The translations under genes and the position numbers were made by a program. The notes beneath the pieces are model-generated. The model did no database searches. It worked only from the letters and a program-made list of their open reading frames with translations, and had not been told where the DNA came from. From a virus, in IMG/VR virus record IMGVR_UViG_3300020183_000011: DNA of 64,000 nucleotides. One strand, 5' to 3'. Shown in pieces: positions 13,100 through 61,644 of the stretch. Numbering within the stretch: position 1 is the first letter of the stretch; each line of letters opens with the position of its first letter.

Positions 13100-13135
13100 T
13101 TGTACTTTTAATCCCAGACGGGATATAATTATATT

Positions 13136-13540
13136 ATGAAATCAGTTCCAGACTTCATTGAAGGCCATAAGCCTTCTAATGATATATTGATCTTAGGCCA
13201 ATGTCCCTCTTCTAAAACTAAACCATTTAAGAATGGGACATTTGCACGTCTGAGCAAATGGTTAGAAACTGTAGATGTGCATGCATTTGCATTCCATAAC
13301 GTGATACCTGATAAGATCAATAGTTATGACATTAAAGACGTACAGTATAAGAAGCTATACACTGTATCGCATGGTCGAAAGAAGATCATCGCATTAGGTG
13401 GGTTTGTAGAACGCGTATGTAAGAAGTATAACATACCACACTATAAGATAGATCATCCTTCTCCAAGGAATCGTAACTTAAATGACCCTAAATATGAAGA
13501 GCAGATGTTAAAACGACTAAGAGATTATCTCAATGATTGA
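13136..13540 (+). CDS. Uracil-DNA glycosylase superfamily protein
   Basis: ILILGQCP, NV, KIIALG and HPSPRN motifs. Confidence 0.75.
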   Translation: MKSVPDFIEGHKPSNDILILGQCPSSKTKPFKNGTFARLSKWLETVDVHAFAFHNVIPDKINSYDIKDVQYKKLYTVSHGRKKIIALGGFVERVCKKYNIPHYKIDHPSPRNRNLNDPKYEEQMLKRLRDYLND

Positions 13541-14699
13541 GACTACACAATACTATGACGAGTACATAAGATATTTTAGTCTTGCAAAGGATCAGCAAGA
13601 AAAGTGTAACGTATCTCTTAATCCACCGTATGGTATGATACCGCATGCAGAGTCGGACATGAATGATGATCTACTTCATTATATTGAACTATATGATGTG
13701 GTAGAACGTAAGTACGCAGGGTTTTCTCAGATAGTTAATGATTGCTTTTATGGCTGGACCGAAGATCACCCATACTGGAAAAAGATGGAAGCTGGTAAGA
13801 TCACTCGTCAACGGGATACGATAGCTAAGAACTGGACAGGAAAACACTCAGACTTTAAGTTACCTGAATGGCTGTACATCTTTATCCTCCATCGTGTATG
13901 CGGTTCTGCGATCAACTATTCTACAAAACCAAGTGGATATCACAATACCATACTATTTGGTTTACACAACTGTAAGACTATTGAAGACATGGTCGAGATG
14001 GTGAATAACTATCCATCATCGTTCTATACTTCTGTAGGTTATCAGTTCCCAGCTTTTCCTAAACCACCAGCAGATTCAAGATACAAAAAGGGTGGAGACT
14101 ATTACCTATCAGAGTATGCACCACGATTAGCAAGAGAACTAGCAGAGTATTTAGAATCTGGTGGTAAACGATCATTAAGAGAGATCGGTTCATTCATGTT
14201 GGATTGGAACGTTAAGAACGACTTAAGACAGTACCATTTTCAATACGCAGCAGTGGTTGCAGACGTGGCTGACTGGTATCCTCAGTATGTAGATAAGACA
14301 TCACCATTTTACTACGGTACAAATGCAGTAGAGTGTATATCATATCTTGCTAAACCTACATCTAAGATGAAACAAGAACAATTCTTAGATCAAGTAATGA
14401 TGAAGATATATGAAGATACTAAAGCATACCCATACAATGCAGAAGACGTATGCTGTGACTTCATCCGATGGGTAGAGAACTATGTCCGACCAGGATCTGA
14501 CTACGATCATCTTGATTTTGATAGTGTATGGTCGTCATGTAAGATTAAAGACCATCCATTTGGTAGACAGAAAGCAATGCTACAACTAGGATTAGTAGAC
14601 ACATTTAATAGTATGACAGCTCATCCATCAGATGATGCTATCTTAAAAGCAAACAACATGACTGTAGAACAATATAAGGAACTATGCAAAACACTCTAA
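13533..14699 (+). CDS. aGPT-Pplase-like helical DNA-modification enzyme (paralog 1)
   Basis: YDVVERKY, FQYAAVVADV, YGTNAVECI and C-terminal AEDVCCDFIRW resemble family motifs (F.AY...D, GPGA..GL, E..LCEF.KY). Confidence 0.6.
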   Translation: MIETTQYYDEYIRYFSLAKDQQEKCNVSLNPPYGMIPHAESDMNDDLLHYIELYDVVERKYAGFSQIVNDCFYGWTEDHPYWKKMEAGKITRQRDTIAKNWTGKHSDFKLPEWLYIFILHRVCGSAINYSTKPSGYHNTILFGLHNCKTIEDMVEMVNNYPSSFYTSVGYQFPAFPKPPADSRYKKGGDYYLSEYAPRLARELAEYLESGGKRSLREIGSFMLDWNVKNDLRQYHFQYAAVVADVADWYPQYVDKTSPFYYGTNAVECISYLAKPTSKMKQEQFLDQVMMKIYEDTKAYPYNAEDVCCDFIRWVENYVRPGSDYDHLDFDSVWSSCKIKDHPFGRQKAMLQLGLVDTFNSMTAHPSDDAILKANNMTVEQYKELCKTL

Positions 14700-15673
14700 C
14701 AAGGTTTATCGATAACGTCGAATATAAGAACATCACTTATAAAGGTACATCACCAGTATTACTAAAAGATGGAAAGCCTACAGAGTCTTGGATGAAGGAC
14801 TGGTCACTTGATAAACGTCTCGATAAGTTTTTTGAGTTCTGTCAAGAGTTTGATTTACGTCGTGATCAACTACTAGCAGAAGACTATCAGATCTTCTCAC
14901 ATCGTTTACATTGGCATGAACATCCGTTCTGTGATATCATGAAGAAGGTCATTGATCCTAAGTTAAGATTATGGTACACGCTTACGTTCTCCTTTAGTAA
15001 CGAACACTGGGGCACACTAACACGATTGATGTATCAAGGTCCAGAAAACCTAAGAGAACACTTCAAAGAAAACAGGCATGCACGTAATGACTTGTTTCAG
15101 ATCTACTATCCTAAGAACACTAACGTCAAAGAATGGTTGATCGATGGTCCTATGAAAGCTGCTGAGGAGATGTGGGGGTTTCTTGATAAACATCGTAATA
15201 GGTTAGGACGACCATACACGATGATGGAGTATGCAAAGTTATTAGAGAAGTATTTCAAAGAGAAACAAAACTTTCGTAGTCCATTATATCCATGCAAGAA
15301 CGCCGCACGATACATGGCTATGGCATATCCAGACATCGTAGATCCAGAGTCAGTATTGTTTGGTGGTACTGGTCACTTTGATGGTATGCATCAGATATTT
15401 GGTGTTAACTTAAACGGCAAAGTACAGTATGAGATCGATGTAGATGGTCAGTTCATACCTAAGAATAAGAACGGTGAGTTATGGCTATCACAGATGTATC
15501 AGCTTAGAGATGATCCACGCAACCCAATGAGAAAACAGAAGATGTTAAATATAGAAGATAAGACATGTTTCTTTTATAAGCACATTGCTATATCACATGG
15601 TGTTAAGTCACCTACTAAACGTATACCATATAACTGGATATTCCCTGAAACATTTAGTTTGAGGGTGGCATGA
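14684..15673 (+). CDS. aGPT-Pplase-like helical DNA-modification enzyme (paralog 2)
   Basis: FFEFC...DQLL..DY, GGTGHFDGM, C-terminal IEDKTCFFYK. Confidence 0.55.
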   Translation: MQNTLTRFIDNVEYKNITYKGTSPVLLKDGKPTESWMKDWSLDKRLDKFFEFCQEFDLRRDQLLAEDYQIFSHRLHWHEHPFCDIMKKVIDPKLRLWYTLTFSFSNEHWGTLTRLMYQGPENLREHFKENRHARNDLFQIYYPKNTNVKEWLIDGPMKAAEEMWGFLDKHRNRLGRPYTMMEYAKLLEKYFKEKQNFRSPLYPCKNAARYMAMAYPDIVDPESVLFGGTGHFDGMHQIFGVNLNGKVQYEIDVDGQFIPKNKNGELWLSQMYQLRDDPRNPMRKQKMLNIEDKTCFFYKHIAISHGVKSPTKRIPYNWIFPETFSLRVA

Positions 15674-16572
15674 GAACGTTCGTTGAAGGTGTAAACAAAG
15701 AAGTAGGCATGATGTCATGGTTAGAGGCCAAAGACTATTACCTATCTCTATGTGAAGGATGGACACCATATAACCCAGATCCGGTTGTTATTGAACATGA
15801 AGGCGTGCGAGTAGTTCGAGATGACCTTATCGTTGGTACAAAGACAAGAGCTGGTGATCTGCTAGCAGCAAAGATACCAAACGACACGTTAGTATATGTA
15901 CAGCCGAGAGTCGGGCTTGCTGGTGTATCTCTATGTGATGTAGCTAAGATACATGGTAAGAAGATCGTGTTGTTCATGCCATCATCAAAGCAGATATCAC
16001 ATCATCAAGCATGTTGTATTGAACGTGGGGCAGAGGTGCATTTTGAACGCATAGCTGCTATGCCTAACCTAAACTTAGCTGCTAAGAAGTATGCAGAGGA
16101 AAATGGTTATGCATTCATACCGCTTGGTTTAAAGCATGAACTAGCAACAGCAGGTATTGTATATGCTGCATCTAAGGTGCCAGAACCTGATGAAGTTTAT
16201 GTAGCTATAAGTACTGGTGTACTATCACGTGCACTACAGATCGCATGGCCAAATGCAAAGTTCCATTCGGTAGCTGTAGCTCGTAACCTACAACAAGGAG
16301 AATTAGGTAGAGCAGAATTTATTGACGAACCACTTGAATTTGCAACACCCGAAAAGCTTGAGAACTTACCGCCGTTCCCTACAGTACGTACATACGATGC
16401 TAAAGTTTGGAAGTACATACCAAAAAATACGGGTAAGAACATACTGATGTGGAACGTTGGAACAGATCCAGTATTAAACGATTACAGTATCATAGATAAG
16501 ACAGACTCATATAGAAAATGGAAAAAAGATGAAACTACTACTAACACAGCCACTCTCGCCAGTTTCCAATAA
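15670..16572 (+). CDS. PLP-dependent enzyme, fold type II (TrpB/ACC-deaminase-like)
   Basis: VVRDDLIVGTKTR with the Schiff-base Lys; VAISTGVL phosphate loop; YDAK; MWNVG. Confidence 0.8.
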   Translation: MRTFVEGVNKEVGMMSWLEAKDYYLSLCEGWTPYNPDPVVIEHEGVRVVRDDLIVGTKTRAGDLLAAKIPNDTLVYVQPRVGLAGVSLCDVAKIHGKKIVLFMPSSKQISHHQACCIERGAEVHFERIAAMPNLNLAAKKYAEENGYAFIPLGLKHELATAGIVYAASKVPEPDEVYVAISTGVLSRALQIAWPNAKFHSVAVARNLQQGELGRAEFIDEPLEFATPEKLENLPPFPTVRTYDAKVWKYIPKNTGKNILMWNVGTDPVLNDYSIIDKTDSYRKWKKDETTTNTATLASFQ

Positions 16573-17581
16573 GATACACTCGCATAAGGCATCACAAGGT
16601 ATCATCTATGCTGATCAGCTAAAGAATGCTGGGATGGATGTGACTGTCCACATGACTGGTAATCAACTACTTGACTATAATGCATACGATACAGTAGCGT
16701 TATATCATGGTAATGACTGGGGTGGATCACTCAACCTATTCGGTGGATTAGAGAACTATGCAAACATAGAGTACATCATCGCACTAAGTAACTTTCGAGG
16801 TGCAGTATGGTCGCTAGCGATAGATATGCCAGATTATTGGGGTATGTTATATCCGCGAGTCGAGGATGCTATTCGCAATGACAAGAAGATGAACAAGCTA
16901 TGGAAACAGGTAGATTGGGTTGGATTAAAAGATCTACAAGAACGAGCTATCACCTATGATCCAAACCTTGCTAAGAGATATAATAAGATAGCGATAGGTG
17001 ACAGCCATGCTATTTGTATGTACAGACCCGGATGGATGAACGTATCTACTCCGTTTAAGACATTACATGGAGCCATCTCAATGGGCTTCGACTCATTCAT
17101 ACCAGAAGGTGAGTACAATGAAATCGAAGTATACTTTGGCAACATTGATATTCGTCACCATTTGATGAGACAACTGGATCCGATTCAATCTACTAGAGAT
17201 CTTGCTGCTAGGTATATAAAAGAATGTCTACGCATTAAAGATCTATATAAAGCAAACGTTATGATATGGGAACAGTTACCTATAGAGAACGAGTCTCGAA
17301 TATTACCAAAGACTGGTTACTATAAAGGTACTGCATACACTGGAACACAGAAGGAACGTGATAACCTTCGTAAGATATTTAAAGAAGAGTTGTTGAAAGG
17401 TCCGATACCTGTATTTGAATGGGTAGACGACATGATAAACGATAAGGGTGAGCTTGATTTTGAGTTCATGGAGAAGCCTAAGTCGGTCCACTTGTCCAGA
17501 GCCTCATACCCACATTGGACTGGAGCTGACTGGAATGCTCCAAAAGCGTCCCCAAATAGTCTAGAGACATTCTTTTTATAA
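16529..17581 (+). CDS. Two-domain protein with a C-terminal SGNH hydrolase/acyltransferase-like domain
   Basis: IGDSH, FGNIDIRHH and SVHLS blocks. Confidence 0.55.
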   Translation: MKLLLTQPLSPVSNKIHSHKASQGIIYADQLKNAGMDVTVHMTGNQLLDYNAYDTVALYHGNDWGGSLNLFGGLENYANIEYIIALSNFRGAVWSLAIDMPDYWGMLYPRVEDAIRNDKKMNKLWKQVDWVGLKDLQERAITYDPNLAKRYNKIAIGDSHAICMYRPGWMNVSTPFKTLHGAISMGFDSFIPEGEYNEIEVYFGNIDIRHHLMRQLDPIQSTRDLAARYIKECLRIKDLYKANVMIWEQLPIENESRILPKTGYYKGTAYTGTQKERDNLRKIFKEELLKGPIPVFEWVDDMINDKGELDFEFMEKPKSVHLSRASYPHWTGADWNAPKASPNSLETFFL

Positions 17582-27847: not shown

Positions 27848-28223
27848 TATACAAGGCTGTGCTATCTTAGGAGTCGGTGGTGCATATCAAACTATTGATA
27901 ATGTATCTACTGGTGTAAACGTAGTATCGTATGGCGCTACAGGAAAAGGATTATCAGATCATGCTGCATCTACTATCACAGGCAAAGATTGCCAAATGTT
28001 TAACGTATTACAACATAAAAATATTTGTAGGATAAGGAAAACTTATGAAGTGCGACATCTGCAAGAAGGAAATAAACAGCAGTTGCAAGTGGAAACCTTG
28101 CCAACTATTAAAGTACCTAAAGAAAGGAAAAAACTAAATGTCACAAGATTGGGTAAAAGACATGAACGACATGCACGCAAAGTTCGGTGTGCGAGAAGTC
28201 GTGTCAAAAATGGATGCAAATAA
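27807..28223 (+). CDS. Putative lipoprotein
   Basis: Lipobox IQGC; overlaps both neighbours. Confidence 0.5.
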   Translation: MLKRKLLLSLSLVSIQGCAILGVGGAYQTIDNVSTGVNVVSYGATGKGLSDHAASTITGKDCQMFNVLQHKNICRIRKTYEVRHLQEGNKQQLQVETLPTIKVPKERKKLNVTRLGKRHERHARKVRCARSRVKNGCK

Positions 28224-28539
28224 ACTATTGGACTTCTTACAGTTTCGTATAGGTTGTTTACAAGAAGAACTAGACGAACTCAAAGCGGCAAAGAATGGTG
28301 ATGATGCAGTCGATGCATTGATCGACCTATCTGTGTTTGCTATCGGTACATTAGATCTATTTGGTATCGATGCACATATGGCATGGGACCGAGTATATAA
28401 ATCTAACATTACCAAGGAAGTTGGTATCAAGGAAGGTCGACCAAACCCACTAGGTTTGCCTGATCTTATCAAGCCTGAAGGATGGACAGCACCAACTCAT
28501 AAAAATAACACAGGAGCATTCGACAAGATTTATGACTAA
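28138..28539 (+). CDS. MazG/PRA-PH-like NTP pyrophosphohydrolase (candidate dCTPase/dUTPase)
   Basis: LQEELDEL, VDALIDL, SNITK, KPEGW. Confidence 0.8.
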   Translation: MSQDWVKDMNDMHAKFGVREVVSKMDANKLLDFLQFRIGCLQEELDELKAAKNGDDAVDALIDLSVFAIGTLDLFGIDAHMAWDRVYKSNITKEVGIKEGRPNPLGLPDLIKPEGWTAPTHKNNTGAFDKIYD

Positions 28540-29169: not shown

Positions 29170-29517
29170 ATGAAACAATATTCAAGACCGTCAGCAAACA
29201 TCTTATTAGAAGCCGCTGATATCCAAGAACGAAAAGGCAATGATTACAACAATGCCAATTCTCGAGTACAACAAGCAGATTATTATGAACACGGTGTCTG
29301 GACTATCCTTGACATCATGAAAGCAAAGTATCTCCGCATGGTCTCAGTGTTAGAAGCACAAGAGGCTGGAGGTATACCTAACTTTGAATCGGTCGAAGAC
29401 TCAGCTCTTGACATGATCAACTATGCATCGTTCTTAGTTGCGTACTGTCGTCATCAAGTCCCTGGTCAAGATCCTAATCGAGACATCTTTAACAAACCTA
29501 AGAAGGTGACAAAATGA
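29170..29517 (+). CDS. Nucleotide-modification-associated domain 1 (DUF1599-like, all-alpha NTP-PPase-like)
   Basis: RKGNDY, K.LR, ESVEDSALDMINY. Confidence 0.7.
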   Translation: MKQYSRPSANILLEAADIQERKGNDYNNANSRVQQADYYEHGVWTILDIMKAKYLRMVSVLEAQEAGGIPNFESVEDSALDMINYASFLVAYCRHQVPGQDPNRDIFNKPKKVTK

Positions 29518-30209
29518 GTACAGTCTATGGTGTAAGTAATATCCGAAACATCTTTACCGAGAAGCTAAAGATGGGTGACTTCGTCATCGACAAGACTGGT
29601 GTTAAGACTATCGAGATCATGAATGCAGCCTTCTTTGCAAATGCGCCGACTATATTTGGTACAGTCAACGAAGACTATGTTAAGCGTGAACTCGAATGGT
29701 ATAACTCTAAGTCACGCAATGTGAATGATATTCCAGGTGGAGCACCAGAGATATGGAAAATGGTATCATCAACAAAAGGTCGCATCAACTCTAACTATGG
29801 TTGGTGTATATACTCGTTTGAGAATGGCGATCAATTTACTAAAGTAGTCGACGAACTTACAAATAATCCAGACTCTCGTAGAGCGGTCATGATCTATACA
29901 AGACCATCTATGCATTATGACTATAACACTGACGGTATGTCTGACTTCATATGTACTAACACTGTACAATACATGATTAGAAATAATAAACTTCATTCTA
30001 TGGTTTACATGAGATCTAACGATGCGGTGTTTGGCTATAAGAATGATTATGCATGGCAAAAGCATGTGTTACTAGAAGTATGGGAATACTTAAGACATGC
30101 ACACAGTAAGTTTGATGACTTGCAACTAGGTGATATCTATTGGAACGTAGCATCACTTCATATATACGAAAGGCACTTTAAGTTTATAAATGACCCTGCA
30201 GCCAACTAA
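29514..30209 (+). CDS. 42: dCMP hydroxymethylase (T4 gp42-like)
   Basis: RRAVMIYTRPSM..DYN.DGMSDFICTNTVQY, MRSNDAVFGYKNDYAWQ, SLHIYERHF; Asp in NDY is the dCMP-specificity residue. Confidence 0.9.
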   Translation: MSTVYGVSNIRNIFTEKLKMGDFVIDKTGVKTIEIMNAAFFANAPTIFGTVNEDYVKRELEWYNSKSRNVNDIPGGAPEIWKMVSSTKGRINSNYGWCIYSFENGDQFTKVVDELTNNPDSRRAVMIYTRPSMHYDYNTDGMSDFICTNTVQYMIRNNKLHSMVYMRSNDAVFGYKNDYAWQKHVLLEVWEYLRHAHSKFDDLQLGDIYWNVASLHIYERHFKFINDPAAN

Positions 30210-30669
30210 GTGGAAAGATGTCGGTAAATGGTATAAGAGATACCTCAAGTTAGCTAAAGAGGTATCGACATGGTCTAAAGATCCTAGCACCCAAGTTGGT
30301 GCTGTCGTCGTTGGATCTAAAGGACAGATATTGTCACAAGGATACAATGGGTTTCCACGTAATATAGCCGATACGCCCAGACGATTAAAAGACAGAAAAG
30401 TTAAGTTGTCACTCGTAGTGCATGCTGAGATGAACGCTATATATAATGCAACATACTCCGGAGTATCATTAGACGGTGCGATCATGTTTATCTATGGTTT
30501 ACCAGCATGCTCTGAGTGTGCTAAGGGTATCATTCAAGTCGGGATAAGTAAAGTGGTAGTATCAAAACAATGTATAGAATCTCGCCCGCATTGGAACGAA
30601 TCATGGAAAAGTTCTAAGGCCATGTTCGATGAGGCTGGAGTTAAAATTTTTGTAATCGATGAGGAGTAA
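30190..30669 (+). CDS. cd: dCMP deaminase
   Basis: SKDPSTQVGA, GYNG, HAEMNAI, C..C. Confidence 0.92.
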   Translation: MTLQPTKWKDVGKWYKRYLKLAKEVSTWSKDPSTQVGAVVVGSKGQILSQGYNGFPRNIADTPRRLKDRKVKLSLVVHAEMNAIYNATYSGVSLDGAIMFIYGLPACSECAKGIIQVGISKVVVSKQCIESRPHWNESWKSSKAMFDEAGVKIFVIDEE

Positions 30670-48723: not shown

Positions 48724-49737
48724 ATGTTATACATCGATTCTAAATACGTAGGACAAATCTCCTACAAACTCCGTAACTTTAAAAAGAAAGCCGACTACTA
48801 TTGGAACTTTAGTTGTCCGATATGTGGTGACTCAAAGAAAAATACTTTAAAAGCTCGCGGATATGTATTTAAAAATGATAATAGATTAGTATACAAGTGC
48901 CATAATTGTGGTATATCAACTTCTGTAGGTAACTTGATAAAGCAATTAGATCCTATCATGTATAACGAATACGTGTTAGAAAGATATAAAGAATCAACTT
49001 CGCACCACACACCTCATGCCCAGCTTAAATTGGAGACACCTACTGTTTCCGTTGAGTTAAAAGATAATATATTAGATAAGTTGGATCCGATAGAAGTATT
49101 ACCTATCAGTCATCCAGCAATACAGTACCTTATATCACGTAAGATACCTAAAGATAAATGGAAGTTACTTTATTACACAGATACATTTAAAGCATACACT
49201 AATTCTGTAAAGTTTCATTTCACAAACACCAAAGACGATCATCCTCGTATCGTCATACCATACTTTAATGAACATGGTAAAGTATTTGCGTTTCAAGCTA
49301 GAGCACTTGGCGGTGAACAACCTAAGTATTACTCTATTAAGATAGACGATAAAGAAGAGAAGATCTATGCTTTAGATCGTGTAGATTATTCTAAGAGGAT
49401 ATATGTTACAGAAGGTCCTATCGATTCTTTATTTGTGCCTAACTGTATAGCAGTCTCAGGCGCATCATTTGATACACCAACTATTAAATCATTAGCTAGC
49501 AATGCTACGCTTATCATGGATAATGAACCAAGGTCTAAAGAGATATGTAAGTTCATAAACAAGTTGATTGAATCCAATTATACAGTATGTCTATGGCCTG
49601 ACACAGTAAGAGAAAAAGATATCAATGAGATGATCATGGCTGGTAAGACTATCGAGTCAATCATGGACACTATAAATACAAATACATTCCAAGGAATGGA
49701 AGCAAAGCTTAAATTTACACAGTGGAGAAAGTGTTGA
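48724..49737 (+). CDS. 61: DNA primase gp61
   Basis: CPICGDS, CHNCG, TEGPIDS, DNEPR, KDINEM. Confidence 0.97.
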   Translation: MLYIDSKYVGQISYKLRNFKKKADYYWNFSCPICGDSKKNTLKARGYVFKNDNRLVYKCHNCGISTSVGNLIKQLDPIMYNEYVLERYKESTSHHTPHAQLKLETPTVSVELKDNILDKLDPIEVLPISHPAIQYLISRKIPKDKWKLLYYTDTFKAYTNSVKFHFTNTKDDHPRIVIPYFNEHGKVFAFQARALGGEQPKYYSIKIDDKEEKIYALDRVDYSKRIYVTEGPIDSLFVPNCIAVSGASFDTPTIKSLASNATLIMDNEPRSKEICKFINKLIESNYTVCLWPDTVREKDINEMIMAGKTIESIMDTINTNTFQGMEAKLKFTQWRKC

Positions 49738-50606
49738 AAGTACTAATCACAGGAGTTACAGGATACATCGGCTCACACTTAGCAAAGGTGTTATTTGAAG
49801 CTGGTCATAAGATTACCGGGATTGATATACAATGGAAGAAACATAATGATAAAGTGTCTCGTTACTGCCATCGCATATTAATCAAAGACGTAACTAAACA
49901 TATATGTGATGAAGACTATGACGTCATCGTACATCTTGCAGGGCTAATCCAAGTCGAAGAGAGCGTAGCATACCCAACAAAGTACTACTCAACAAACCTT
50001 GGTGGCACAGTAAACATGTTGAGACAAAACATCAACCATGAACCACACTTTATATTCGCATCGACAGCTGGAGCATTTGACGCTCAGTCGCCTTATGCTA
50101 GATCTAAAGTAGCTGCCGAAGATGTCATCAAAGAAAGATCAAAGAACTATACTATATTTAGGTTCTTTAATGTTGCTGGTTCTGATGGTATGCACAGACA
50201 AGTAGGTAGATCCTCACACTTGATTCGTACTGCTGCAGAAGCCGCAGCAGGTAAGAGGGATTACATGAACATTTATGGAGATGATTATGATACACCAGAT
50301 GGTAGTTGTGTTAGGGATTATATTCACGTTGTGGATCTTGTTAACGCTATTCGTGATACGATTAAGCATGGTCCCTTTAACACACCATACGAATGTATTG
50401 GTTCGGGCAAAGGGTACTCGGTCAAAGAAGTAGTTCAAACCATGAAAGATGTTACGGGTCAAGACTTTACCGTAAAGATGGAGGGTCGTAGAGCTGGAGA
50501 TCCTGCTTCTTTAGCAATTAGTAATAGATTCAACCTGTTACAGCCACAATATCAACTAAAAGATATGTGTCTATCTGCATACAACATTGAAATGGCCACT
50601 ATATAA
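49722..50606 (+). CDS. UDP-glucose 4-epimerase-like (GalE) SDR
   Basis: TGVTGYIG, YARSK, RFFNVAG, DGSCVRDYIHV, RRAGDP. Confidence 0.88.
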   Translation: MEKVLKVLITGVTGYIGSHLAKVLFEAGHKITGIDIQWKKHNDKVSRYCHRILIKDVTKHICDEDYDVIVHLAGLIQVEESVAYPTKYYSTNLGGTVNMLRQNINHEPHFIFASTAGAFDAQSPYARSKVAAEDVIKERSKNYTIFRFFNVAGSDGMHRQVGRSSHLIRTAAEAAAGKRDYMNIYGDDYDTPDGSCVRDYIHVVDLVNAIRDTIKHGPFNTPYECIGSGKGYSVKEVVQTMKDVTGQDFTVKMEGRRAGDPASLAISNRFNLLQPQYQLKDMCLSAYNIEMATI

Positions 50607-52624: not shown

Positions 52625-53377
52625 ATGAAGAAGTTTTTAGCAATACTACTATTAGGATTTACATCATTAGCATCAGCAAACCCAATAGATGACAAGTGTC
52701 CACAGCATGTATGGCAAGGTGCACCAGCATTAAAAGATGGTAATAACCAATACTTATGTCGTATCGGTTATGCAGTCAACTATAACTATGCTACAAAGGT
52801 TGCGTACTATGCAGTAGAACATGTAGTTCCAGCAAACTTAGTAAAGAACGCACCACGTAAAGACGAATTCAGAGAAGATCCAGAAGTTCCTGTACAACAT
52901 AGACAAACGCTTGCAGATTATACTGGTATGGGATATGATCGTGGTCATATTGCTCCAGCCGCAGACATGACATTTGATAAGACTGCTATGTCTGAATCGT
53001 TCTATCTAACTAACATGATGCCACAAGTGCCAGGTAATAATCGTGGTATTTGGAAATACCTTGAAGAGAACGTACGATATTGGGCACAAGTTAAAGGTGA
53101 AGTATACGTAATCACTGGAGCTTTGTTTGAAGGTGCACCATTAATGATGAATAAGGTTTCTGTACCATCACATGTATACAAGATCATCATCGATCCAAAG
53201 ACAGGCAGTCAAATAGCTTTCTTATTTCCTAATGAGAAGCTAGATCCAAAACTCATAGATAATTATTCAGTATCTGTTGAATCTATAGAACAAAGAGCTG
53301 GCATAAACTTCTCGCCAAAGTTACCTGATAGATGGATTGCTTACGAAAAAACTAAATTAAAACTAAAAGACTTCTAA
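52625..53377 (+). CDS. Secreted DNA/RNA non-specific endonuclease (NucA/EndoG family)
   Basis: Signal peptide; YDRGHIAP, SFYLTNMMPQ, NRGIWKYLE. Confidence 0.92.
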   Translation: MKKFLAILLLGFTSLASANPIDDKCPQHVWQGAPALKDGNNQYLCRIGYAVNYNYATKVAYYAVEHVVPANLVKNAPRKDEFREDPEVPVQHRQTLADYTGMGYDRGHIAPAADMTFDKTAMSESFYLTNMMPQVPGNNRGIWKYLEENVRYWAQVKGEVYVITGALFEGAPLMMNKVSVPSHVYKIIIDPKTGSQIAFLFPNEKLDPKLIDNYSVSVESIEQRAGINFSPKLPDRWIAYEKTKLKLKDF

Positions 53378-55209: not shown

Positions 55210-56190
55210 ATGAAGAGAGTATTGATCACAGGCGGAGCTGGTTTCATCGCACATCATGTAATTAACCACATTTTAAATACTACTGATTGGAATGTAGTAA
55301 CATTAGATCGATTAGATTTTTCTGGAAATTTAAATAGATTAGCTGAAGTTGTTCCAAACGACGGAAGAGTTAAAACTGTGTTTCATGATCTTAAAGCTGA
55401 ATTAAATTCACAAATAATCAAATCAATAGGTGATATAGATATCATTTTACATCTTGCTGCAGGTTCCCATGTGGATCGATCAATTGAATTCCCTATGGAG
55501 TTTGTTATGGACAATGTTGTTGGTACATGTAACATATTAAACTATGCAAGAACATTACCAAATTTAGAGCGGTTCATTTACTTCTCAACAGATGAAGTGT
55601 TTGGTCCTGCTCCAAATGGTATAAATTATAAAGAATATGACAGATATAATAGTTCTAATCCATACTCAGCTTCAAAAGCTGGCGGTGAAGAGCTTGCCGT
55701 TGCATTCGCTAATACATACAAGATGCCTCTTTATATTACTCATACCATGAACGTATTTGGGGAGAGACAACATCCTGAGAAATATATTCCGGTTTGTATC
55801 AAACGTGTAAGAGATGGTGAAAAAATCATCATCCACTCAGATCCAACTAAAACTATTCCTGGTAGCAGATGTTATATACATGCTTTAGATGTTGCAGAAG
55901 CTTTAATATTCATATTAAATCTAAAAGATCAATACAATGGTTCTAAATTCAATGTTGTAGGTAAAGAAGAAATAAATAATCTACAATTAGCACAAATTAT
56001 ATCTGATGCACAAGGCAAAAAACTTATCTATGAGTTATCGGACTTTCATAGTGCAAGACCCGGTCATGACTTACGATATGCTTTAGATGGTGGTTTATTA
56101 AGAGAACTTGGGTGGGAACCTAAGATATCGCTTAAAGAACGTATCAAAGAAGTCGTTGATTGGACATTAAAAAACGATAGATGGTTATAA
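55210..56190 (+). CDS. dTDP-glucose 4,6-dehydratase-like (RmlB)
   Basis: TGGAGFI, SHVDRSI, STDEV, YSASK, RPGHDLRY. Confidence 0.92.
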   Translation: MKRVLITGGAGFIAHHVINHILNTTDWNVVTLDRLDFSGNLNRLAEVVPNDGRVKTVFHDLKAELNSQIIKSIGDIDIILHLAAGSHVDRSIEFPMEFVMDNVVGTCNILNYARTLPNLERFIYFSTDEVFGPAPNGINYKEYDRYNSSNPYSASKAGGEELAVAFANTYKMPLYITHTMNVFGERQHPEKYIPVCIKRVRDGEKIIIHSDPTKTIPGSRCYIHALDVAEALIFILNLKDQYNGSKFNVVGKEEINNLQLAQIISDAQGKKLIYELSDFHSARPGHDLRYALDGGLLRELGWEPKISLKERIKEVVDWTLKNDRWL

Positions 56191-58954: not shown

Positions 58955-59755
58955 ATGTATAAACTACTAATTTTATTATCGCTGATGTTTTTAGCTGGTT
59001 GTGCAACTACTCGCGTAGTCACTACACCAGAAAAGCCTGTAGAGGTGAAGAGTATCATGCAAAAAGAGTTTGATACTATACCTCCACCTGCTGGTAGACC
59101 GATTATCGTAGCTGTATATACGTTTATTGATAAGACTGGTCAAAGAAGACCTGCTGCTAATTTTGCAAACCTTAGTTCAGCGGTAACACAAGGAGCCGAG
59201 GCTTTCTTAATAAAGGCTTTACAAGATGTAGGTAAAGGTGTTTGGTTTGAAGTCGTCGAAAGGGTAGGTATCGATAGCTTGACTAAAGAGAGACAACTAA
59301 TTCGTCAGATGCGTGAGGCGTATGATGGTCCTAAAGCTAAACCGTTAGGTCCAATGCTTTATGCAGGTGTCATCGTAGAAGGTGGTATAACTGGATATGA
59401 TACAAGCGTTAAGAGTGGTGGTAGTGCTGCACGTATGTTAGGCATTGGACCACAGACACAATACAGCGAAGACATAGTAACAGTAAGTCTTAGAGTTATT
59501 AGTGTAAACTCTGGTAAAGTTTTAGCTGCTGTAAATATACAGAAAACTATTTACAGCGCTAGTGATAGCATGGCAGTATTAAAGTTTATTAAAGATGGAA
59601 CACAGGCATTTGAGATAGAAAGTGGGTTAACCATAAATGAGCCTGGAACTCAAGCAGTAAAAGCTGCTATAGAGAGTGCAGTAGTAGAGTTAATAAAAGA
59701 AGGTAGCAAGAAAGGTATCTGGGAATTCTCCTATGAACCCTTGCAACCACAATAA
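58955..59755 (+). CDS. csgG: Curli secretion channel lipoprotein CsgG
   Basis: Lipobox LAGC; AVYTFIDKTGQR, SSAVTQG, WFEVVER.G...L.KERQLIR, NEP...AV..AIE.AV. Confidence 0.93.
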   Translation: MYKLLILLSLMFLAGCATTRVVTTPEKPVEVKSIMQKEFDTIPPPAGRPIIVAVYTFIDKTGQRRPAANFANLSSAVTQGAEAFLIKALQDVGKGVWFEVVERVGIDSLTKERQLIRQMREAYDGPKAKPLGPMLYAGVIVEGGITGYDTSVKSGGSAARMLGIGPQTQYSEDIVTVSLRVISVNSGKVLAAVNIQKTIYSASDSMAVLKFIKDGTQAFEIESGLTINEPGTQAVKAAIESAVVELIKEGSKKGIWEFSYEPLQPQ

Positions 59756-59761
59756 GGAAAG

Positions 59762-60550
59762 ATGATGATAAAATCATTAAAACTTTTTATCATGATTTTA
59801 TTATTAAGTTTCAATGCATGGGCTGCAGACAATAGTATCTACATTGATCAAAGTGGTGATAACAGCACCATCGATGTGATACAAACTGGTGCAGGTAACG
59901 TCATACGTGGCATACAAGGAGTTGGTACAGGTAACACAACACCAGCAAAGATGTATGGTAACAACAGTGTAATCGATATCCAACAAATTGGTAGTACTAA
60001 CACATTAAACTTAGGTTTAAACGTAAGTACAGCAGTTGGTCGTGCGTATGGTATCGACTTAACATACTATGTAACTGGTAATAATGGTACAGCAACCATC
60101 AACAGTAACAATGCTGGTTCAGGTACAAGTGGAAGTAACTTCATAGATGTGCGTCAAACTGGTAACAGTGCAAGCATTAACTTGAACGTATTAGGTAGTA
60201 AGAATGACTTTACTGCTGTTACATCAGGTGGAGCTTCTAACAGTATCACTGCTACTATTAATGCAAACGAGACAGTAAGTAATATTAGTATGACTGGTGG
60301 TGCAAGTAATACATTTACTGGTACTCTTAGCAGCAACAAAGGTCAAGTTAACGTAACTACTGTTGGCGCAAGTAATGGTGTGACACTATCGCAAACTGGT
60401 ACTGCTGGTATTAATGGTCATGAATTTACACTAAACCTAACTGGATCTAGTAACACGTTTGGTGTTACTCAATCTGGAACTATTGACACAACAGTTAATG
60501 TATTGAGTTCTGGAAGCGGTAATACATGGAACATTACTACTGGAAATTAA
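59762..60550 (+). CDS. Curlin-repeat (CsgA/CsgB-like) secreted protein
   Basis: Signal peptide; repeated Q-x-G-x-x-N units (NSIYIDQSGDNSTIDVIQTGAGN); Gly/Asn/Ser/Thr-rich. Confidence 0.75.
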   Translation: MMIKSLKLFIMILLLSFNAWAADNSIYIDQSGDNSTIDVIQTGAGNVIRGIQGVGTGNTTPAKMYGNNSVIDIQQIGSTNTLNLGLNVSTAVGRAYGIDLTYYVTGNNGTATINSNNAGSGTSGSNFIDVRQTGNSASINLNVLGSKNDFTAVTSGGASNSITATINANETVSNISMTGGASNTFTGTLSSNKGQVNVTTVGASNGVTLSQTGTAGINGHEFTLNLTGSSNTFGVTQSGTIDTTVNVLSSGSGNTWNITTGN

Positions 60551-61644
60551 TATGTATCATATTGCTCTGGCCGCAACTAACACTTGCGGCCGTGGGTAGT
60601 ATAACTGAACTTCAAAACACCCCCGCAAACATCCAACGTAAAGGCTCTAGTCTTACCGGAAATAAAGGTATAGGTGTAGAGATGAACGACGTCGTCAAGA
60701 CGGCTCAAGGCAAAACAGGTATAACTTTTGCTGACGACACAAGAGTACAAGTAAGTGAAAACAGTAAGCTAGTCATCGATGACTTTGTGTATGACCCTAA
60801 TAGCAAGAAGGGTGGTAAGCTTGCAATGAAGGTCGCTTTAGGCACAGTACGTTATGCATCAGGTGCAGTCGCACATAATAACCCAGACAACGTTAAGATC
60901 AATACACCAAGCGCTACTATCGCAGTCAGAGGTACAGACTTTACTGCTACAGTAGACGAGTTAGGTAGGAGCACCATAATCTTATTACCAAGTTGTCCTA
61001 AAGATTATAAAGACGTCATACTTGATTGTAAGACTGGTAAAATCGAAGTACTTACAGACGAAGGCAAAGTTGTATTAGATCAACCGTTTCAAGCCACGAG
61101 GGTTGATAACAGAGATAGTAAGCCGTTTAAACCAGTTACTTTAAACTTAGATGAAACTCAAATAAGTAACATACTCATATTAAGTCCACCAAAAGAGCTT
61201 AGAGAGTCTGATGAAGATAAATCTAAGAAGAGATCTGAAGTAAAAGGTGCACTAGATGTAGACTTCTTAGCGGAGAACAAACTCATAAACGTGTTAGAAA
61301 AACAGGCAGCTGAGACATATAAGAGCAAGCTAGATCGAAACTTCTTAGATAATGATTTATTAGCAAACATACTAGACATCATCAATGCACAATTAGCAGC
61401 TCAATTAGATCTATTAGGTAAGACTAAGTCTGGATTATTACCAGATTATATACCAACTTCTGGTGTATTAGTTGAAGTCGATGATCTACAAGTCACATTA
61501 TGTCGTGAAGGTAACGGAGATGTACAATGCATCACGACTCCAAAAAATCAAAATACAACCATAACACAAACTCAAGGACCAGTAGAGATCAAGAATAGGA
61601 TTAACAATGGTGGTAACACGGTTATTAACGCTACTCAAAATTAG
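60526..61644 (+). CDS. Secreted FecR-domain protein
   Basis: Signal peptide; F.DDT.V.V.ENSKLVIDDFVYDP, TPSATIAVRGTDF. Confidence 0.85.
   Translation: MEHYYWKLICIILLWPQLTLAAVGSITELQNTPANIQRKGSSLTGNKGIGVEMNDVVKTAQGKTGITFADDTRVQVSENSKLVIDDFVYDPNSKKGGKLAMKVALGTVRYASGAVAHNNPDNVKINTPSATIAVRGTDFTATVDELGRSTIILLPSCPKDYKDVILDCKTGKIEVLTDEGKVVLDQPFQATRVDNRDSKPFKPVTLNLDETQISNILILSPPKELRESDEDKSKKRSEVKGALDVDFLAENKLINVLEKQAAETYKSKLDRNFLDNDLLANILDIINAQLAAQLDLLGKTKSGLLPDYIPTSGVLVEVDDLQVTLCREGNGDVQCITTPKNQNTTITQTQGPVEIKNRINNGGNTVINATQN

What the first reader, a model, noticed from the sequence alone, without database searches (positions are those of the whole stretch)
13101..17581. Candidate cytosine-hypermodification operon: amino-acid-transfer-type enzymes in a phage with a dCMP hydroxymethylase
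Seen: five overlapping genes under one promoter, encoding a UDG-like protein, two divergent paralogs with aGPT-Pplase-type motifs (AEDVCCDFIRW; IEDKTCFFYK), a fold-II PLP enzyme and an SGNH-type protein. Established: aGPT-Pplase plus PLP enzymes build amino-acid/amine-modified thymidines on 5-hmdU DNA in phages such as phiW-14, ViI and M6. Seen: the TS-family gene at 29514 is gp42-like with the dCMP-specific Asp (GYKNDYAW), and no DNA glucosyltransferase is recognisable in the window. Inference: this chemistry may be redirected to 5-hydroxymethylcytosine (transfer, PLP-dependent trimming, possible SGNH acylation), giving a base I cannot match to a described pathway.
Basis: partly seen in the sequence, partly recalled or inferred. 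Interest (0 to 1): 0.88.

Follow-up and report, generated by a model that had tools for sequence, protein, structure and literature searches.

The report
Kinase-less hydroxymethylcytosine DNA hypermodification operon
A lake phage related to T4 makes 5-hydroxymethylcytosine, but instead of T4's sugar-adding enzymes it has a five-gene operon related to the enzymes that attach amino acids to thymine in other phages, so its DNA probably carries a decorated cytosine that has not been described chemically.

Summary
There are five overlapping + strand genes at 13136-17581:
- p1: a weak UDG-superfamily match.
- p2: an all-helical protein. Its model is closest to the solved amino-acid:DNA transferase PUGT (Z 10.2). 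It has an invariant Glu304-x3-Cys308 that maps onto PUGT's Glu243/Cys247.
- p3: a distant paralog of p2 (hhalign 90.8%).
- p4: a PLP enzyme of the same PHROG as the DNA decarboxylase M6 gp52, with the PLP lysine aligned.
- p5: a two-domain protein whose C-terminal half has an SGNH fold (Z 13.7) and keeps all four signature residues.

The TS-family gene at 29514 is a T4 gp42 dCMP hydroxymethylase (E 4e-83, Asp179 kept).

In about 80 related phage contigs the cassette usually lies directly behind gp42 and dCMP deaminase. All 37 linked gp42 genes keep the dCMP-type Asp. Five related genomes, two of them near complete, have no 5-hmdU DNA kinase, no dUMP-type hydroxymethylase and no glucosyltransferase. 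SGNH and p2-like domains occur fused in other phages. A similar fusion in cultured Aeromonas phage 44RR2.8t has only weakly supported homology to p2.

Best reading: post-replicative, amino-acid-type hypermodification of 5-hmC, with the SGNH enzyme standing where the kinase would be. The chemistry is inferred, not shown. This scan has already noted the same cassette in at least 40 other genomes.

The parts
13100..13129 (+). Promoter-like site: TTGTAC, 18 nt spacer, TATAAT, ending 6 nt before the p1 ATG. If it is used, the mRNA would be leaderless or nearly so.
   Evidence: Sequence read. It is below the threshold of the consensus scan (-35 matches 3 of 6). Not verified.
13136..13540 (+). p1, a small UDG-superfamily-like protein (134 aa). 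It is an accessory member, absent from most related cassettes.
   Evidence: PF03167 E 3.3e-4, 21.2 bits, below the 24.3 cut-off. Orthologs conserve G-(Q/I/L)-(C/N)-P-S and H-P-S-x-x-N-R-x-L-N. Present in only about 30 of 80 loci.
13533..14699 (+). p2, an aGPT-Pplase-superfamily (AADT-like) helical enzyme and the predicted DNA base transferase. Glu304 and Cys308 are the likely catalytic dyad.
   Evidence: AF2 model with pLDDT 95. Best VIA match is PUGT 8z2n_B: Z 10.2, rmsd 3.9 A, 208 residues aligned, model 9-319 on chain 8-258. E304 and C308 are invariant in 49 diverse homologs. hhalign against a PF18723 profile gives E 0.0014 over 148 colinear columns. ESM Atlas: 25 of 30 nearest clusters carry PF18723.
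14684..15673 (+). p3, a divergent paralog of p2 that keeps its own Glu291-x3-Cys295. It is an accessory member, missing from roughly a fifth to a quarter of the related cassettes whose contig reaches that position.
   Evidence: hhalign of the p2 family against the p3 family: probability 90.8%, E 1.2e-6, 131 columns including the ExxxC motif. E291, D292, K293 and C295 are invariant in 28 homologs. ESM Atlas: 25 of 30 nearest clusters carry PF18723. Presence and absence across loci.
15670..16572 (+). p4, a fold-type II PLP enzyme of the M6 gp52 / ViI gp226 family, which are DNA-linked amino-acid decarboxylases. Lys58 is the predicted PLP lysine.
   Evidence: phrog_7093 E 6.9e-38. M6 gp52 falls in the same PHROG at E 2e-159. 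K58 aligns with gp52 K36, and the C-terminal PFP...YD.K.W...N.G block is shared. Cysteine synthase 2EGU E 0.007.
16529..17581 (+). p5, a two-domain enzyme. The N-terminal alpha/beta domain (about 1-143) weakly resembles the N-terminal half of T4 beta-glucosyltransferase. Residues 144-331 are an SGNH domain with Ser159, Gly181, Asn205 and His321.
   Evidence: AF2 model with pLDDT 90. Foldseek E 3e-6 to GDSL/SGNH esterases. VIA Z 13.7-13.0, rmsd about 3.0 A, about 165 residues aligned. GDSH 157-160, G181, D207 and H321 are invariant and N205 nearly so. PF09198 E 0.05 here and 0.001-0.009 in orthologs. Fused to a p2-like domain in P0282 and P0270.
28138..28539 (+). MazG/PRA-PH-type nucleotide pyrophosphatase in the gp42 module, a candidate dCTP-clearing enzyme.
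   Evidence: PF01503 E 5.8e-6. Conserved next to gp42 in relatives.
29170..29517 (+). Small protein directly upstream of gp42. Its ortholog shows a weak match to Nmad1 (DUF1599).
   Evidence: The L035 ortholog hits PF07659 at E 1.5e-4. Syntenic in most relatives.
29514..30209 (+). gp42-type dCMP hydroxymethylase, the source of 5-hydroxymethyl-dCMP.
   Evidence: E 4.3e-83 to T4 gp42 structures 1B49/1B5E, with Asp179 conserved. 57-60% identical to gp42 of cultured T4-like phages.
30190..30669 (+). dCMP deaminase whose start overlaps the end of gp42.
   Evidence: PF00383 E 7.5e-20. The pair is conserved in relatives.

Best explanation
The operon is a post-replicative DNA hypermodification cassette that acts on 5-hydroxymethylcytosine.

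Steps supported by homology:
- gp42, probably helped by the MazG-type pyrophosphatase, gives hm-dCTP, so the phage DNA contains 5-hmC.
- p2 is a DNA-base-flipping enzyme of the aGPT-Pplase/AADT superfamily with the Glu-x3-Cys dyad.
- p4 is a PLP enzyme of the family that decarboxylates amino acids already attached to DNA bases.
- p5 is a catalytically complete SGNH enzyme that works with p2.

Inferred mechanism:
1. p5 modifies the 5-CH2OH group of flipped-out hmC, most likely by O-acylation, to create a leaving group. It thereby takes the place of the 5-hmdU DNA kinase of the thymidine pathways.
2. Cys308 of p2 attacks C6 and the leaving group departs, giving an exocyclic methylene. An amino acid then adds through a side-chain or alpha atom.
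3. p4 removes the carboxylate, leaving an amine-bearing cytosine, for example an aminoethoxymethyl-type group if the donor is serine.

p3 is a second transferase or a DNA-handling partner, and p1 (UDG-like) is an accessory protein. Neither is part of the conserved core.
For: Identity of gp42, including Asp179.

The cassette is tied to gp42:
- In most of about 80 related contigs the order is pol, MazG, Nmad1-like, gp42, dcd, [p1], p2, [p3], p4, p5, uvsX.
- All 37 linked hydroxymethylases keep the dCMP-type N-D motif.
- Five related genomes, two of them near complete (99% and 91%), each have only one TS-family gene.

p2:
- Confident model, with the solved AADT PUGT as top structural match above the other HhH glycosylases.
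- The offset of 61 between the aligned ranges puts E304/C308 on E243/C247, the PUGT active-site residues (PMC11472151).
- In M6 gp51 and ViI gp247 both residues are essential (PMC8989533).
- E and C are invariant in 49/49 p2 and 28/28 p3 homologs.

p4: same PHROG as M6 gp52, with the PLP lysine aligned. Decarboxylase activity on DNA-linked amino acids has been shown for gp52 and gp226 (PMC8989533).

p5:
- SGNH fold and S-G-N-H residues.
- Natural SGNH + p2-like fusions, and p2+p5 without p4 in L063/L069, make p5 and p2 the functional core.
- Aeromonas phage 44RR2.8t has a similar SGNH-helical fusion, though its helical half is only weakly matched.

No 5-hmdU DNA kinase (PF18748) in five related genomes, and no small P-loop protein in the window.
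Against: - No chemistry has been measured, so the base, the donor and the order of steps are all inferred.
- p2 and p3 do not reach any of the three Pfam aGPT-Pplase models. Sequence-level links to PF18723 are weak (E 0.0014 to 0.01).
- For helical proteins, Z about 10 is within the range the tool warns can arise from a common arrangement.
- The residue-level superposition of E304/C308 on E243/C247 is deduced from the range offsets and was not seen in an alignment.
- SGNH enzymes are mostly hydrolases. The acyl donor is unknown, and the usual triad Asp is absent (Lys318 stands three residues before His321).
- The rest of this phage's genome is not held. The absence of a kinase or a second hydroxymethylase therefore rests on relatives.
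- A dCMP deaminase overlaps gp42, so an hm-dUMP route cannot be excluded from sequence alone.
Confidence: 0.72

Rival explanations
1. The substrate is 5-hydroxymethyluracil, not 5-hmC. The dCMP deaminase coupled to gp42 converts hm-dCMP to hm-dUMP, which enters DNA in place of some T and is then hypermodified as in M6 or ViI.
For: The deaminase gene overlaps the end of gp42 here and follows it in most relatives. The closest characterised enzymes (AADT, gp52) act on thymidine derivatives. From memory, untested: T-even dCMP deaminases accept hm-dCMP in vitro.
Against: T4 itself encodes both gp42 and a dCMP deaminase and still makes hmC DNA, so the pair is ordinary. In G002 the deaminase lies 60 kb away from the gp42-cassette block, so adjacency is not required. 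The 5-hmdU DNA kinase that all characterised T pathways need is absent from five related genomes. The residue after the catalytic Glu is Asp in 44/49 p2 and 28/28 p3 homologs, against Thr in AADT and His in M6 gp55. That fits recognition of a different base, though this is inference.
Confidence: 0.1
2. p5 alone makes the final modification, an O-acyl ester of 5-hmC, or removes one. p2, p3 and p4 would then serve another purpose, such as reading, repairing or editing modified bases, rather than transferring an amino acid.
For: SGNH-fold O-acetyltransferases exist among the matches (PatB, OatA). Aeromonas phage 44RR2.8t has the SGNH-helical fusion and gp42 but no p4-like PLP gene. M6 gp55, of the clade nearest p2 and p3, was dispensable in vitro.
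Against: The strict conservation of the AADT-type Glu/Cys dyad in p2 and p3 points to covalent C6 chemistry rather than mere binding. p4 of the DNA-decarboxylase family follows p2 in most cassettes and needs an amino-acid adduct as its substrate.
Confidence: 0.1
3. The cluster is a DNA repair module (an HhH-type glycosylase, a UDG and accessory enzymes) that protects hmC DNA, for example by removing hmU or uracil, and adds nothing to the DNA.
For: The other structural matches of p2 are 8-oxoG glycosylases, AGOG and MutY. p1 is UDG-like.
Against: A repair role explains neither the PLP decarboxylase homolog nor the SGNH partner fused to the helical domain. The invariant residues are the AADT Glu/Cys dyad. 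No glycosylase-type catalytic Asp/Lys motif was looked for. p1 is absent from most cassettes.
Confidence: 0.05

Closest known systems
Thymidine hypermodification pathways of phages M6, ViI, PaMx11 and PhiW-14 (dUMP hydroxymethylase, 5-hmdU DNA kinase PF18748, amino-acid:DNA transferase PF18724, PLP decarboxylase; Lee et al. 2021, PMC8989533)
   Same: [quoted passage not shown] A PLP enzyme of the same PHROG with the same lysine. The genes are clustered next to the pyrimidine hydroxymethylase. The logic is post-replicative modification of a 5-hydroxymethylpyrimidine.
   Different: The hydroxymethylase is gp42-type (dCMP, Asp179). There is no 5-hmdU DNA kinase. An SGNH-fold two-domain enzyme is the conserved partner instead. 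p2 and p3 fall outside all three Pfam aGPT-Pplase models. The host phage is a T4-superfamily myovirus.
PaMx11 gp46 / PUGT, 5-PmdU glycinyltransferase (PDB 8Z2M, 8Z2N; Wen et al. 2024, PMC11472151)
   Same: It is the best structural match of the p2 model (Z 10.2, 208 residues aligned). Active-site Glu243 and Cys247 correspond by offset to p2 Glu304 and Cys308.
   Different: Only 9% identity. p2 is 100 residues longer. Thr244 next to the Glu is Asp305 in p2. The substrate of PUGT is phosphorylated hmU.
T4 hmC pathway (gp42, gp56, alpha- and beta-glucosyltransferases)
   Same: The gp42 ortholog is 57-60% identical, with a nucleotide pyrophosphatase and a dCMP deaminase in the same module. The modification is built on hmC after replication. 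The N-terminal domain of p5 weakly resembles the N-terminal half of beta-GT.
   Different: No glucosyltransferase is present. The predicted decoration is derived from an amino acid or an acyl group, not from a sugar.
Aeromonas phage 44RR2.8t ORF233c (795 aa; homologs in phages 31, 25, Aes012, phiAS4)
   Same: Its N-terminal 330 residues are 33% identical to p5 (E 3e-37). Its C-terminal part gives a weak PF18723 match and carries E-I-A-C-C. The phage has gp42 and lacks glucosyltransferases (Petrov et al. 2010, PMC2993671).
   Different: It is a single fused polypeptide. No p4-like PLP gene is in the genome. The protein is annotated only as hypothetical, and homology of its helical half to p2 was not confirmed by hhalign.
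TET/C5-methyltransferase hypermodification contigs with a P-loop kinase and an aGPT-Pplase (Burke et al. 2021, PMC8256090)
   Same: Thymidine-type transferases were proposed there to act on 5-hmC in DNA.
   Different: In those contigs hmC is made after replication by methyltransferase plus TET, and a P-loop kinase is present. Here hmC is made before replication by gp42 and there is no kinase. Neither case has a determined product.

Membership tests
T4 gp42 dCMP hydroxymethylase | Full-length similarity to solved T4 gp42, with Asp at position 179 (Asn in dUMP-specific enzymes) | tested here: met
   E 4.3e-83 to 1B49/1B5E. MRSNDAVFGYKNDYAWQK aligns with T4 MRSNDVVFGFRNDYAWQK, and the D179N mutant entry 6L18 shows the position.
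Thymidine hypermodification pathway (M6/ViI type) | A dUMP hydroxymethylase that supplies 5-hmdU | tested here: not met
   The only TS-family gene in the window and in five related genomes is gp42-type. The rest of this genome is not held.
Thymidine hypermodification pathway (M6/ViI type) | 5-hmdU DNA kinase (PF18748, P-loop) | tested here: not met
   No PF18748 match in G001 (99% complete), G002 (91%) or G003-G004. There is one sub-threshold 10.5-bit hit in G005. BLAST with M6 gp54 was negative. The window has no small Walker-A protein.
Thymidine hypermodification pathway (M6/ViI type) | PLP-dependent decarboxylase of the gp52/gp226 family with the PLP lysine | tested here: met
   phrog_7093 E 6.9e-38. 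M6 gp52 is in the same PHROG. K58 aligns with K36.
aGPT-Pplase superfamily (Pfam PF18723, PF18724, PF18746) | A match to a family model above its gathering score | tested here: not met
   No hit for p2 or p3 at E up to 1. Only 1 of 49 p2 homologs hits PF18723, at E 0.01. There are no hits in related genomes.
aGPT-Pplase superfamily (Pfam PF18723, PF18724, PF18746) | A two-bundle HhH-glycosylase-like helical fold as in PUGT | tested here: met
   VIA Z 10.2, rmsd 3.9 A, 208 of 288 residues aligned to 8z2n_B. This ranks first, above DUF2419 (8.4), AGOG (8.3) and Ogg (7.8). Caveat: helical folds score high by chance.
aGPT-Pplase superfamily (Pfam PF18723, PF18724, PF18746) | Conserved Glu and Cys four residues apart near the C-terminus (essential in M6 gp51 and ViI gp247) | tested here: met
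   E304/C308 in 49/49 and E291/C295 in 28/28 homologs. The same spacing occurs in M6 gp51 (EVETVLCKW) and M6 gp55 (IEHTLCEF). Colinear hhalign against a PF18723 profile gives E 0.0014.
SGNH/GDSL hydrolase superfamily (p5 residues 144-331) | The SGNH fold with Ser (block I GDS), Gly (II), Asn (III GxND) and His (V) | tested here: met
   Foldseek E 3.4e-6, VIA Z 13.7. GDSH 157-160, G181, D207 and H321 are invariant and N205 nearly so. The block V Asp is not present (K318).
UDG superfamily (p1) | A match to PF03167 above the cut-off, with motifs A and B | tested here: inconclusive
   21.2 bits against a cut-off of 24.3, but the match covers the whole model (6-141 of 141). Motif-like GQCPS and HPSPRN are conserved. 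No structure was predicted.
T4 hmC glucosyltransferases | A full-length match to PF09198 (beta-GT), or any GT in the cassette | tested here: not met
   Only positions 26-114 of 167 match the N-domain of p5, at E 0.05. The same partial match is the only one in four related genomes. Alpha-GT was not searched for separately.

The most novel reading that the evidence does not exclude
A kinase-independent route to a new natural DNA base. An SGNH-fold enzyme, carrying a domain derived from the acceptor half of a glucosyltransferase, esterifies the hydroxymethyl group of 5-hmC in duplex DNA. A new clade of Cys-dependent base transferases then replaces the ester with an amino acid. A PLP enzyme decarboxylates it, giving an amine-bearing cytosine (for example 5-aminoethoxymethyl- or 5-aminoalkyl-cytosine). 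This base would be widespread in freshwater and marine T4-like phages, and a simpler fused version would operate in cultured Aeromonas phages.
Probability: 0.35. Interest if true: 0.9.

Novelty: new variant of a known kind. Interest (0 to 1): 0.8.

Why it matters
All characterised non-sugar pyrimidine hypermodifications made by AADT-type enzymes are on thymine. On hmC, the characterised decorations are sugars.

A conserved, abundant cassette that joins the gp42 pathway to AADT-like, PLP and SGNH enzymes predicts an undescribed class of cytosine modification in environmental T4-like phages. It has 142 clusters at 50% identity for p2 alone and occurs in about 80 IMG/VR contigs.

This would matter in several ways:
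- Such a base would affect restriction, CRISPR and other nuclease defences.
- It could bias sequencing of aquatic viromes.
- It would add enzymes that write new groups onto hmC in DNA, which is of direct interest for hmC-labelling chemistry.
- The SGNH + helical fusion in Aeromonas phages 44RR2.8t, 31 and 25 offers a cultured system. It may also answer a question open since 2010: what those gp42-positive, glucosyltransferase-negative phages do with their hmC.

Tried and rejected
- megablast of the operon and tblastn of p2 and p3 against 50,697 phage records: no match. No cultured phage carries an unfused p2 or p3.
- BLASTP of p2 against p3: nothing significant. Paralogy appeared only at profile level.
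- phmmer and profile search of p2, p3 and p1 against PDB sequences: nothing.
- hhalign of the p2 family against the single sequences M6 gp51 and 44RR ORF233c C-terminus: no signal. hhalign of the p3 family against gp51, gp55 and the PF18723 profile: E 0.12-0.49. Homology of the 44RR helical half to p2 therefore rests on a weak PF18723 hit (E 0.0036), a weak alignment to the gp55 profile (E 0.044) and the ExxCC motif.
- Foldseek alone gave no p2 match at E <= 0.001. The AADT link needed VIA-align.
Whole-genome statements therefore rest on five IMG/VR relatives.
- The 337-aa ORF at 48724, next to an epimerase gene, was checked as a possible hidden glycosyltransferase. It is the gp61 primase.
- Presence or absence of the deaminase cannot separate hmC from hmU. 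G002 simply keeps its deaminase elsewhere.
- Iyer et al. 2013, the original aGPT-Pplase paper, is not in the held library. I could not check whether it already listed this clade.
Its fold assignment stays weak.

Full report
**What is there**

The window is part of a T4-superfamily phage. It encodes gp46, gp45, gp44, a B-family polymerase, UvsX, gp41, gp61, RNR and a dCMP deaminase. The polymerase is about 52% identical to those of cyanomyophages. The primase is 46% identical to that of Methylophilales phage Melnitz. Earlier notes of this scan place the phage with lake methylotrophs. I did not test that.

At 13136-17581 five + strand ORFs overlap by 8, 16, 4 and 44 nt. A perfect TATAAT ends 6 nt before the first ATG, but its -35 is weak and the consensus scan did not call it. 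'One promoter' is therefore plausible and unproven.

**The hydroxymethylase**

The gene at 29514-30209 aligns over its whole length with T4 dCMP hydroxymethylase (E 4e-83) and keeps Asp179, the residue that selects cytosine. A MazG/PRA-PH-type pyrophosphatase and a small Nmad1-like ORF precede it. A dCMP deaminase overlaps its end.

**p2 and p3**

Neither protein matches Pfam, PHROGs or PDB sequences.

p2 belongs to a large uncharacterised family: 929 clusters at 90% identity and 142 at 50%. In 49 diverse members G124, S125, G135, N138, F236, D244, G262, E304 and C308 are invariant.
- The AF2 model is confident (pLDDT 95, pTM 0.93) and all-helical.
- Foldseek found only weak HhH-glycosylase and PUGT matches.
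- VIA-align ranks the solved 5-PmdU glycinyltransferase PUGT (PaMx11 gp46, an AADT) first: Z 10.2, rmsd 3.9 A, 208 residues aligned. DUF2419, AGOG and Ogg follow at Z 8.4 to 7.1.
- The aligned ranges (model 9-319, chain 8-258) give an offset of 61. That puts E304/C308 on E243/C247, which line the PUGT active site (PMC11472151).
- The equivalent residues are essential in M6 gp51 and ViI gp247 (PMC8989533).

The same Glu-x3-Cys motif is in M6 gp51 (EVETVLCKW) and in M6 gp55 of clade 1 (IEHTLCEFDKY).

p3 is a distant paralog of p2: hhalign probability 90.8%, E 1.2e-6, 131 columns ending in the motif. It keeps E291/C295 in 28 of 28 homologs.

Sequence links to Pfam clade 1 are weak but colinear (E 0.0014; E 0.005; one member at E 0.01). 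Language-model features put both proteins next to PF18723-bearing clusters (25 of 30 hits each, scores 0.95-0.97). None of PF18723, PF18724 or PF18746 detects them. I read p2 and p3 as new, divergent clades of the aGPT-Pplase superfamily. They are not members of the curated AADT family.

**p4**

p4 hits phrog_7093 at E 7e-38, the PHROG of M6 gp52. gp52 is the enzyme shown to decarboxylate an amino acid attached to a DNA base. Lys58 aligns with the PLP lysine K36 of gp52, and a C-terminal PFP...YD.K.W...N.G block is shared.

**p5**

The model (pLDDT 90) has two domains. Residues 144-331 are an SGNH fold (Foldseek E 3e-6; VIA Z 13.7-13.0, rmsd about 3 A). Ser159 (in GDSH), Gly181 and His321 are invariant and Asn205 (in GNID) nearly so. 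There is no block V Asp.

The N-terminal alpha/beta domain gives a repeatable sub-threshold match to the N-terminal half of T4 beta-glucosyltransferase, here and in orthologs.

p5-like and p2-like domains are fused in metagenomic proteins P0282 and P0270. In Aeromonas phage 44RR2.8t, ORF233c (795 aa) joins a p5-like half (33% identity) to a helical half with a weak PF18723 hit and an E-I-A-C-C motif. hhalign did not confirm the homology of that helical half to p2.

**p1**

p1 has a sub-threshold but full-length UDG match. Conserved motifs resemble UDG motifs A and B.

**Context in relatives**

About 80 IMG/VR contigs carry p2.
- In most the order is pol, MazG, Nmad1-like, gp42, dcd, [p1], p2, [p3], p4, p5, uvsX. 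The cassette therefore sits directly behind the hmC module. In the window's own clade it has moved about 16 kb upstream.
- All 37 linked hydroxymethylases keep the N-D motif.
- p2, p4 and p5 are the common core. p3 is missing from roughly a fifth to a quarter of the cassettes whose contig reaches that position, and p1 from most. Two contigs have p2+p5 without p4. One group of contigs shows p2+p3 without p4 or p5, although several of those contigs are short.
- Five related genomes, two estimated 99% and 91% complete, have one TS-family gene each. They have no 5-hmdU DNA kinase and no canonical aGPT-Pplase. Their only beta-GT signal lies inside p5.
- The window has no small Walker-A protein.

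**How it most likely works**

Shown by homology:
- hmC is made through gp42.
- p2 (and p3) is a base-flipping, Cys-dependent enzyme.
- p4 is a decarboxylase for DNA-linked amino acids.
- p5 is a complete SGNH enzyme.

Inferred:
- In the thymidine pathways a P-loop kinase, often linked or fused to a clade 1 helical domain, phosphorylates 5-hmU before AADT displaces the phosphate. Here no such kinase exists, while an SGNH enzyme is the obligatory and sometimes fused partner of the helical enzyme.
- p5 therefore probably esterifies the hydroxymethyl group of hmC to make it a leaving group.
- p2 then forms the C6 thioether and exocyclic methylene and adds an amino acid. p4 removes the CO2.
- Because PLP needs a free alpha-amine, attachment through a side chain (as with serine in ViI) is the simplest case.
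- From memory, untested here: C5-methyltransferases can exchange the hydroxyl of hmC with thiols without prior activation. p2 might therefore act directly, and p5 could have another role.

**Rivals**

- An hmU route through deamination of hm-dCMP cannot be excluded by sequence. It lacks the kinase, however, and T4 carries the same gene pair.
- p5 might be the sole modifier.
- The cluster might be a repair module. That does not explain p4 or the fusions.

**Novelty and earlier work**

No paper in the held library describes AADT-type chemistry on gp42-derived hmC. Burke et al. 2021 proposed a kinase plus aGPT-Pplase acting on TET-made hmC, without a product. Petrov et al. 2010 noted that phages 44RR, 31 and 25 have gp42 but no glucosyltransferase.

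After my analysis I found that this scan had already reported the same cassette in at least 40 other genomes, with similar verdicts. Those are AI notes and not independent proof.

I rate this a new variant of a known kind, of high interest, with the chemistry still to be determined.

Noticed in passing
L087:4408-5931 (Aeromonas phage 44RR2.8t ORF234c): A sodium:solute symporter gene (PF00474, E 6e-53) lies directly upstream of the SGNH-helical fusion ORF233c. It may import the small molecule that is attached to hmC.
   Followed up: no
L095 (Erythrobacter phage vB_EliS_R6L gp1; also phage ZS04 and Microcystis phage Mae-JY30): The only cultured-phage tblastn matches of p4 (33-34% identity, E 2e-33 to 5e-25) lie inside large ORFs annotated as DNA modification methylase. 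This suggests a methyltransferase-PLP fusion and another cytosine hypermodification route.
   Followed up: partly
L035:8902-9315: In relative G002 a cytidylyltransferase-like gene (PF01467, E 3e-13) lies between gp42 and p2, while the dCMP deaminase is about 60 kb away. It may make a CDP-activated donor.
   Followed up: partly
window 49722-50606 and 55210-56190: Two NAD-dependent sugar-nucleotide epimerase/dehydratase genes (PF01370, PF16363) flank the RNR genes. No glycosyltransferase was found near them, and the neighbouring ORF at 48724 is the gp61 primase.
   Followed up: partly
window 13136-13540 (p1): Motif B, HPSPRNRNLN, recalls the HPSPRN motif of SMUG1, the 5-hmU DNA glycosylase (from memory, untested). 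The motif A position that is usually Asp or Asn is Cys here and Asn in some orthologs. p1 may police hmU that arises from hmC.
   Followed up: partly
G001 (IMG/VR relative, 99% complete): No ThyA and no ThyX were found. gp42 is the only TS-family gene, whereas relatives G002, G003 and G005 carry ThyX.
   Followed up: partly
window 52625-53377, 58955-59755, 60526-61644: The phage encodes a non-specific DNA/RNA endonuclease (PF01223, E 3e-54), a CsgG-like lipoprotein (PF03783, E 3e-46) and a FecR-domain protein. The last two are unusual cargo for a T4-like phage.
   Followed up: no
window 13124-13138: TATAAT ends 6 nt before the p1 start codon, and no Shine-Dalgarno sequence can fit between them. 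If this promoter is used, p1 would be translated from a leaderless or nearly leaderless mRNA.
   Followed up: no
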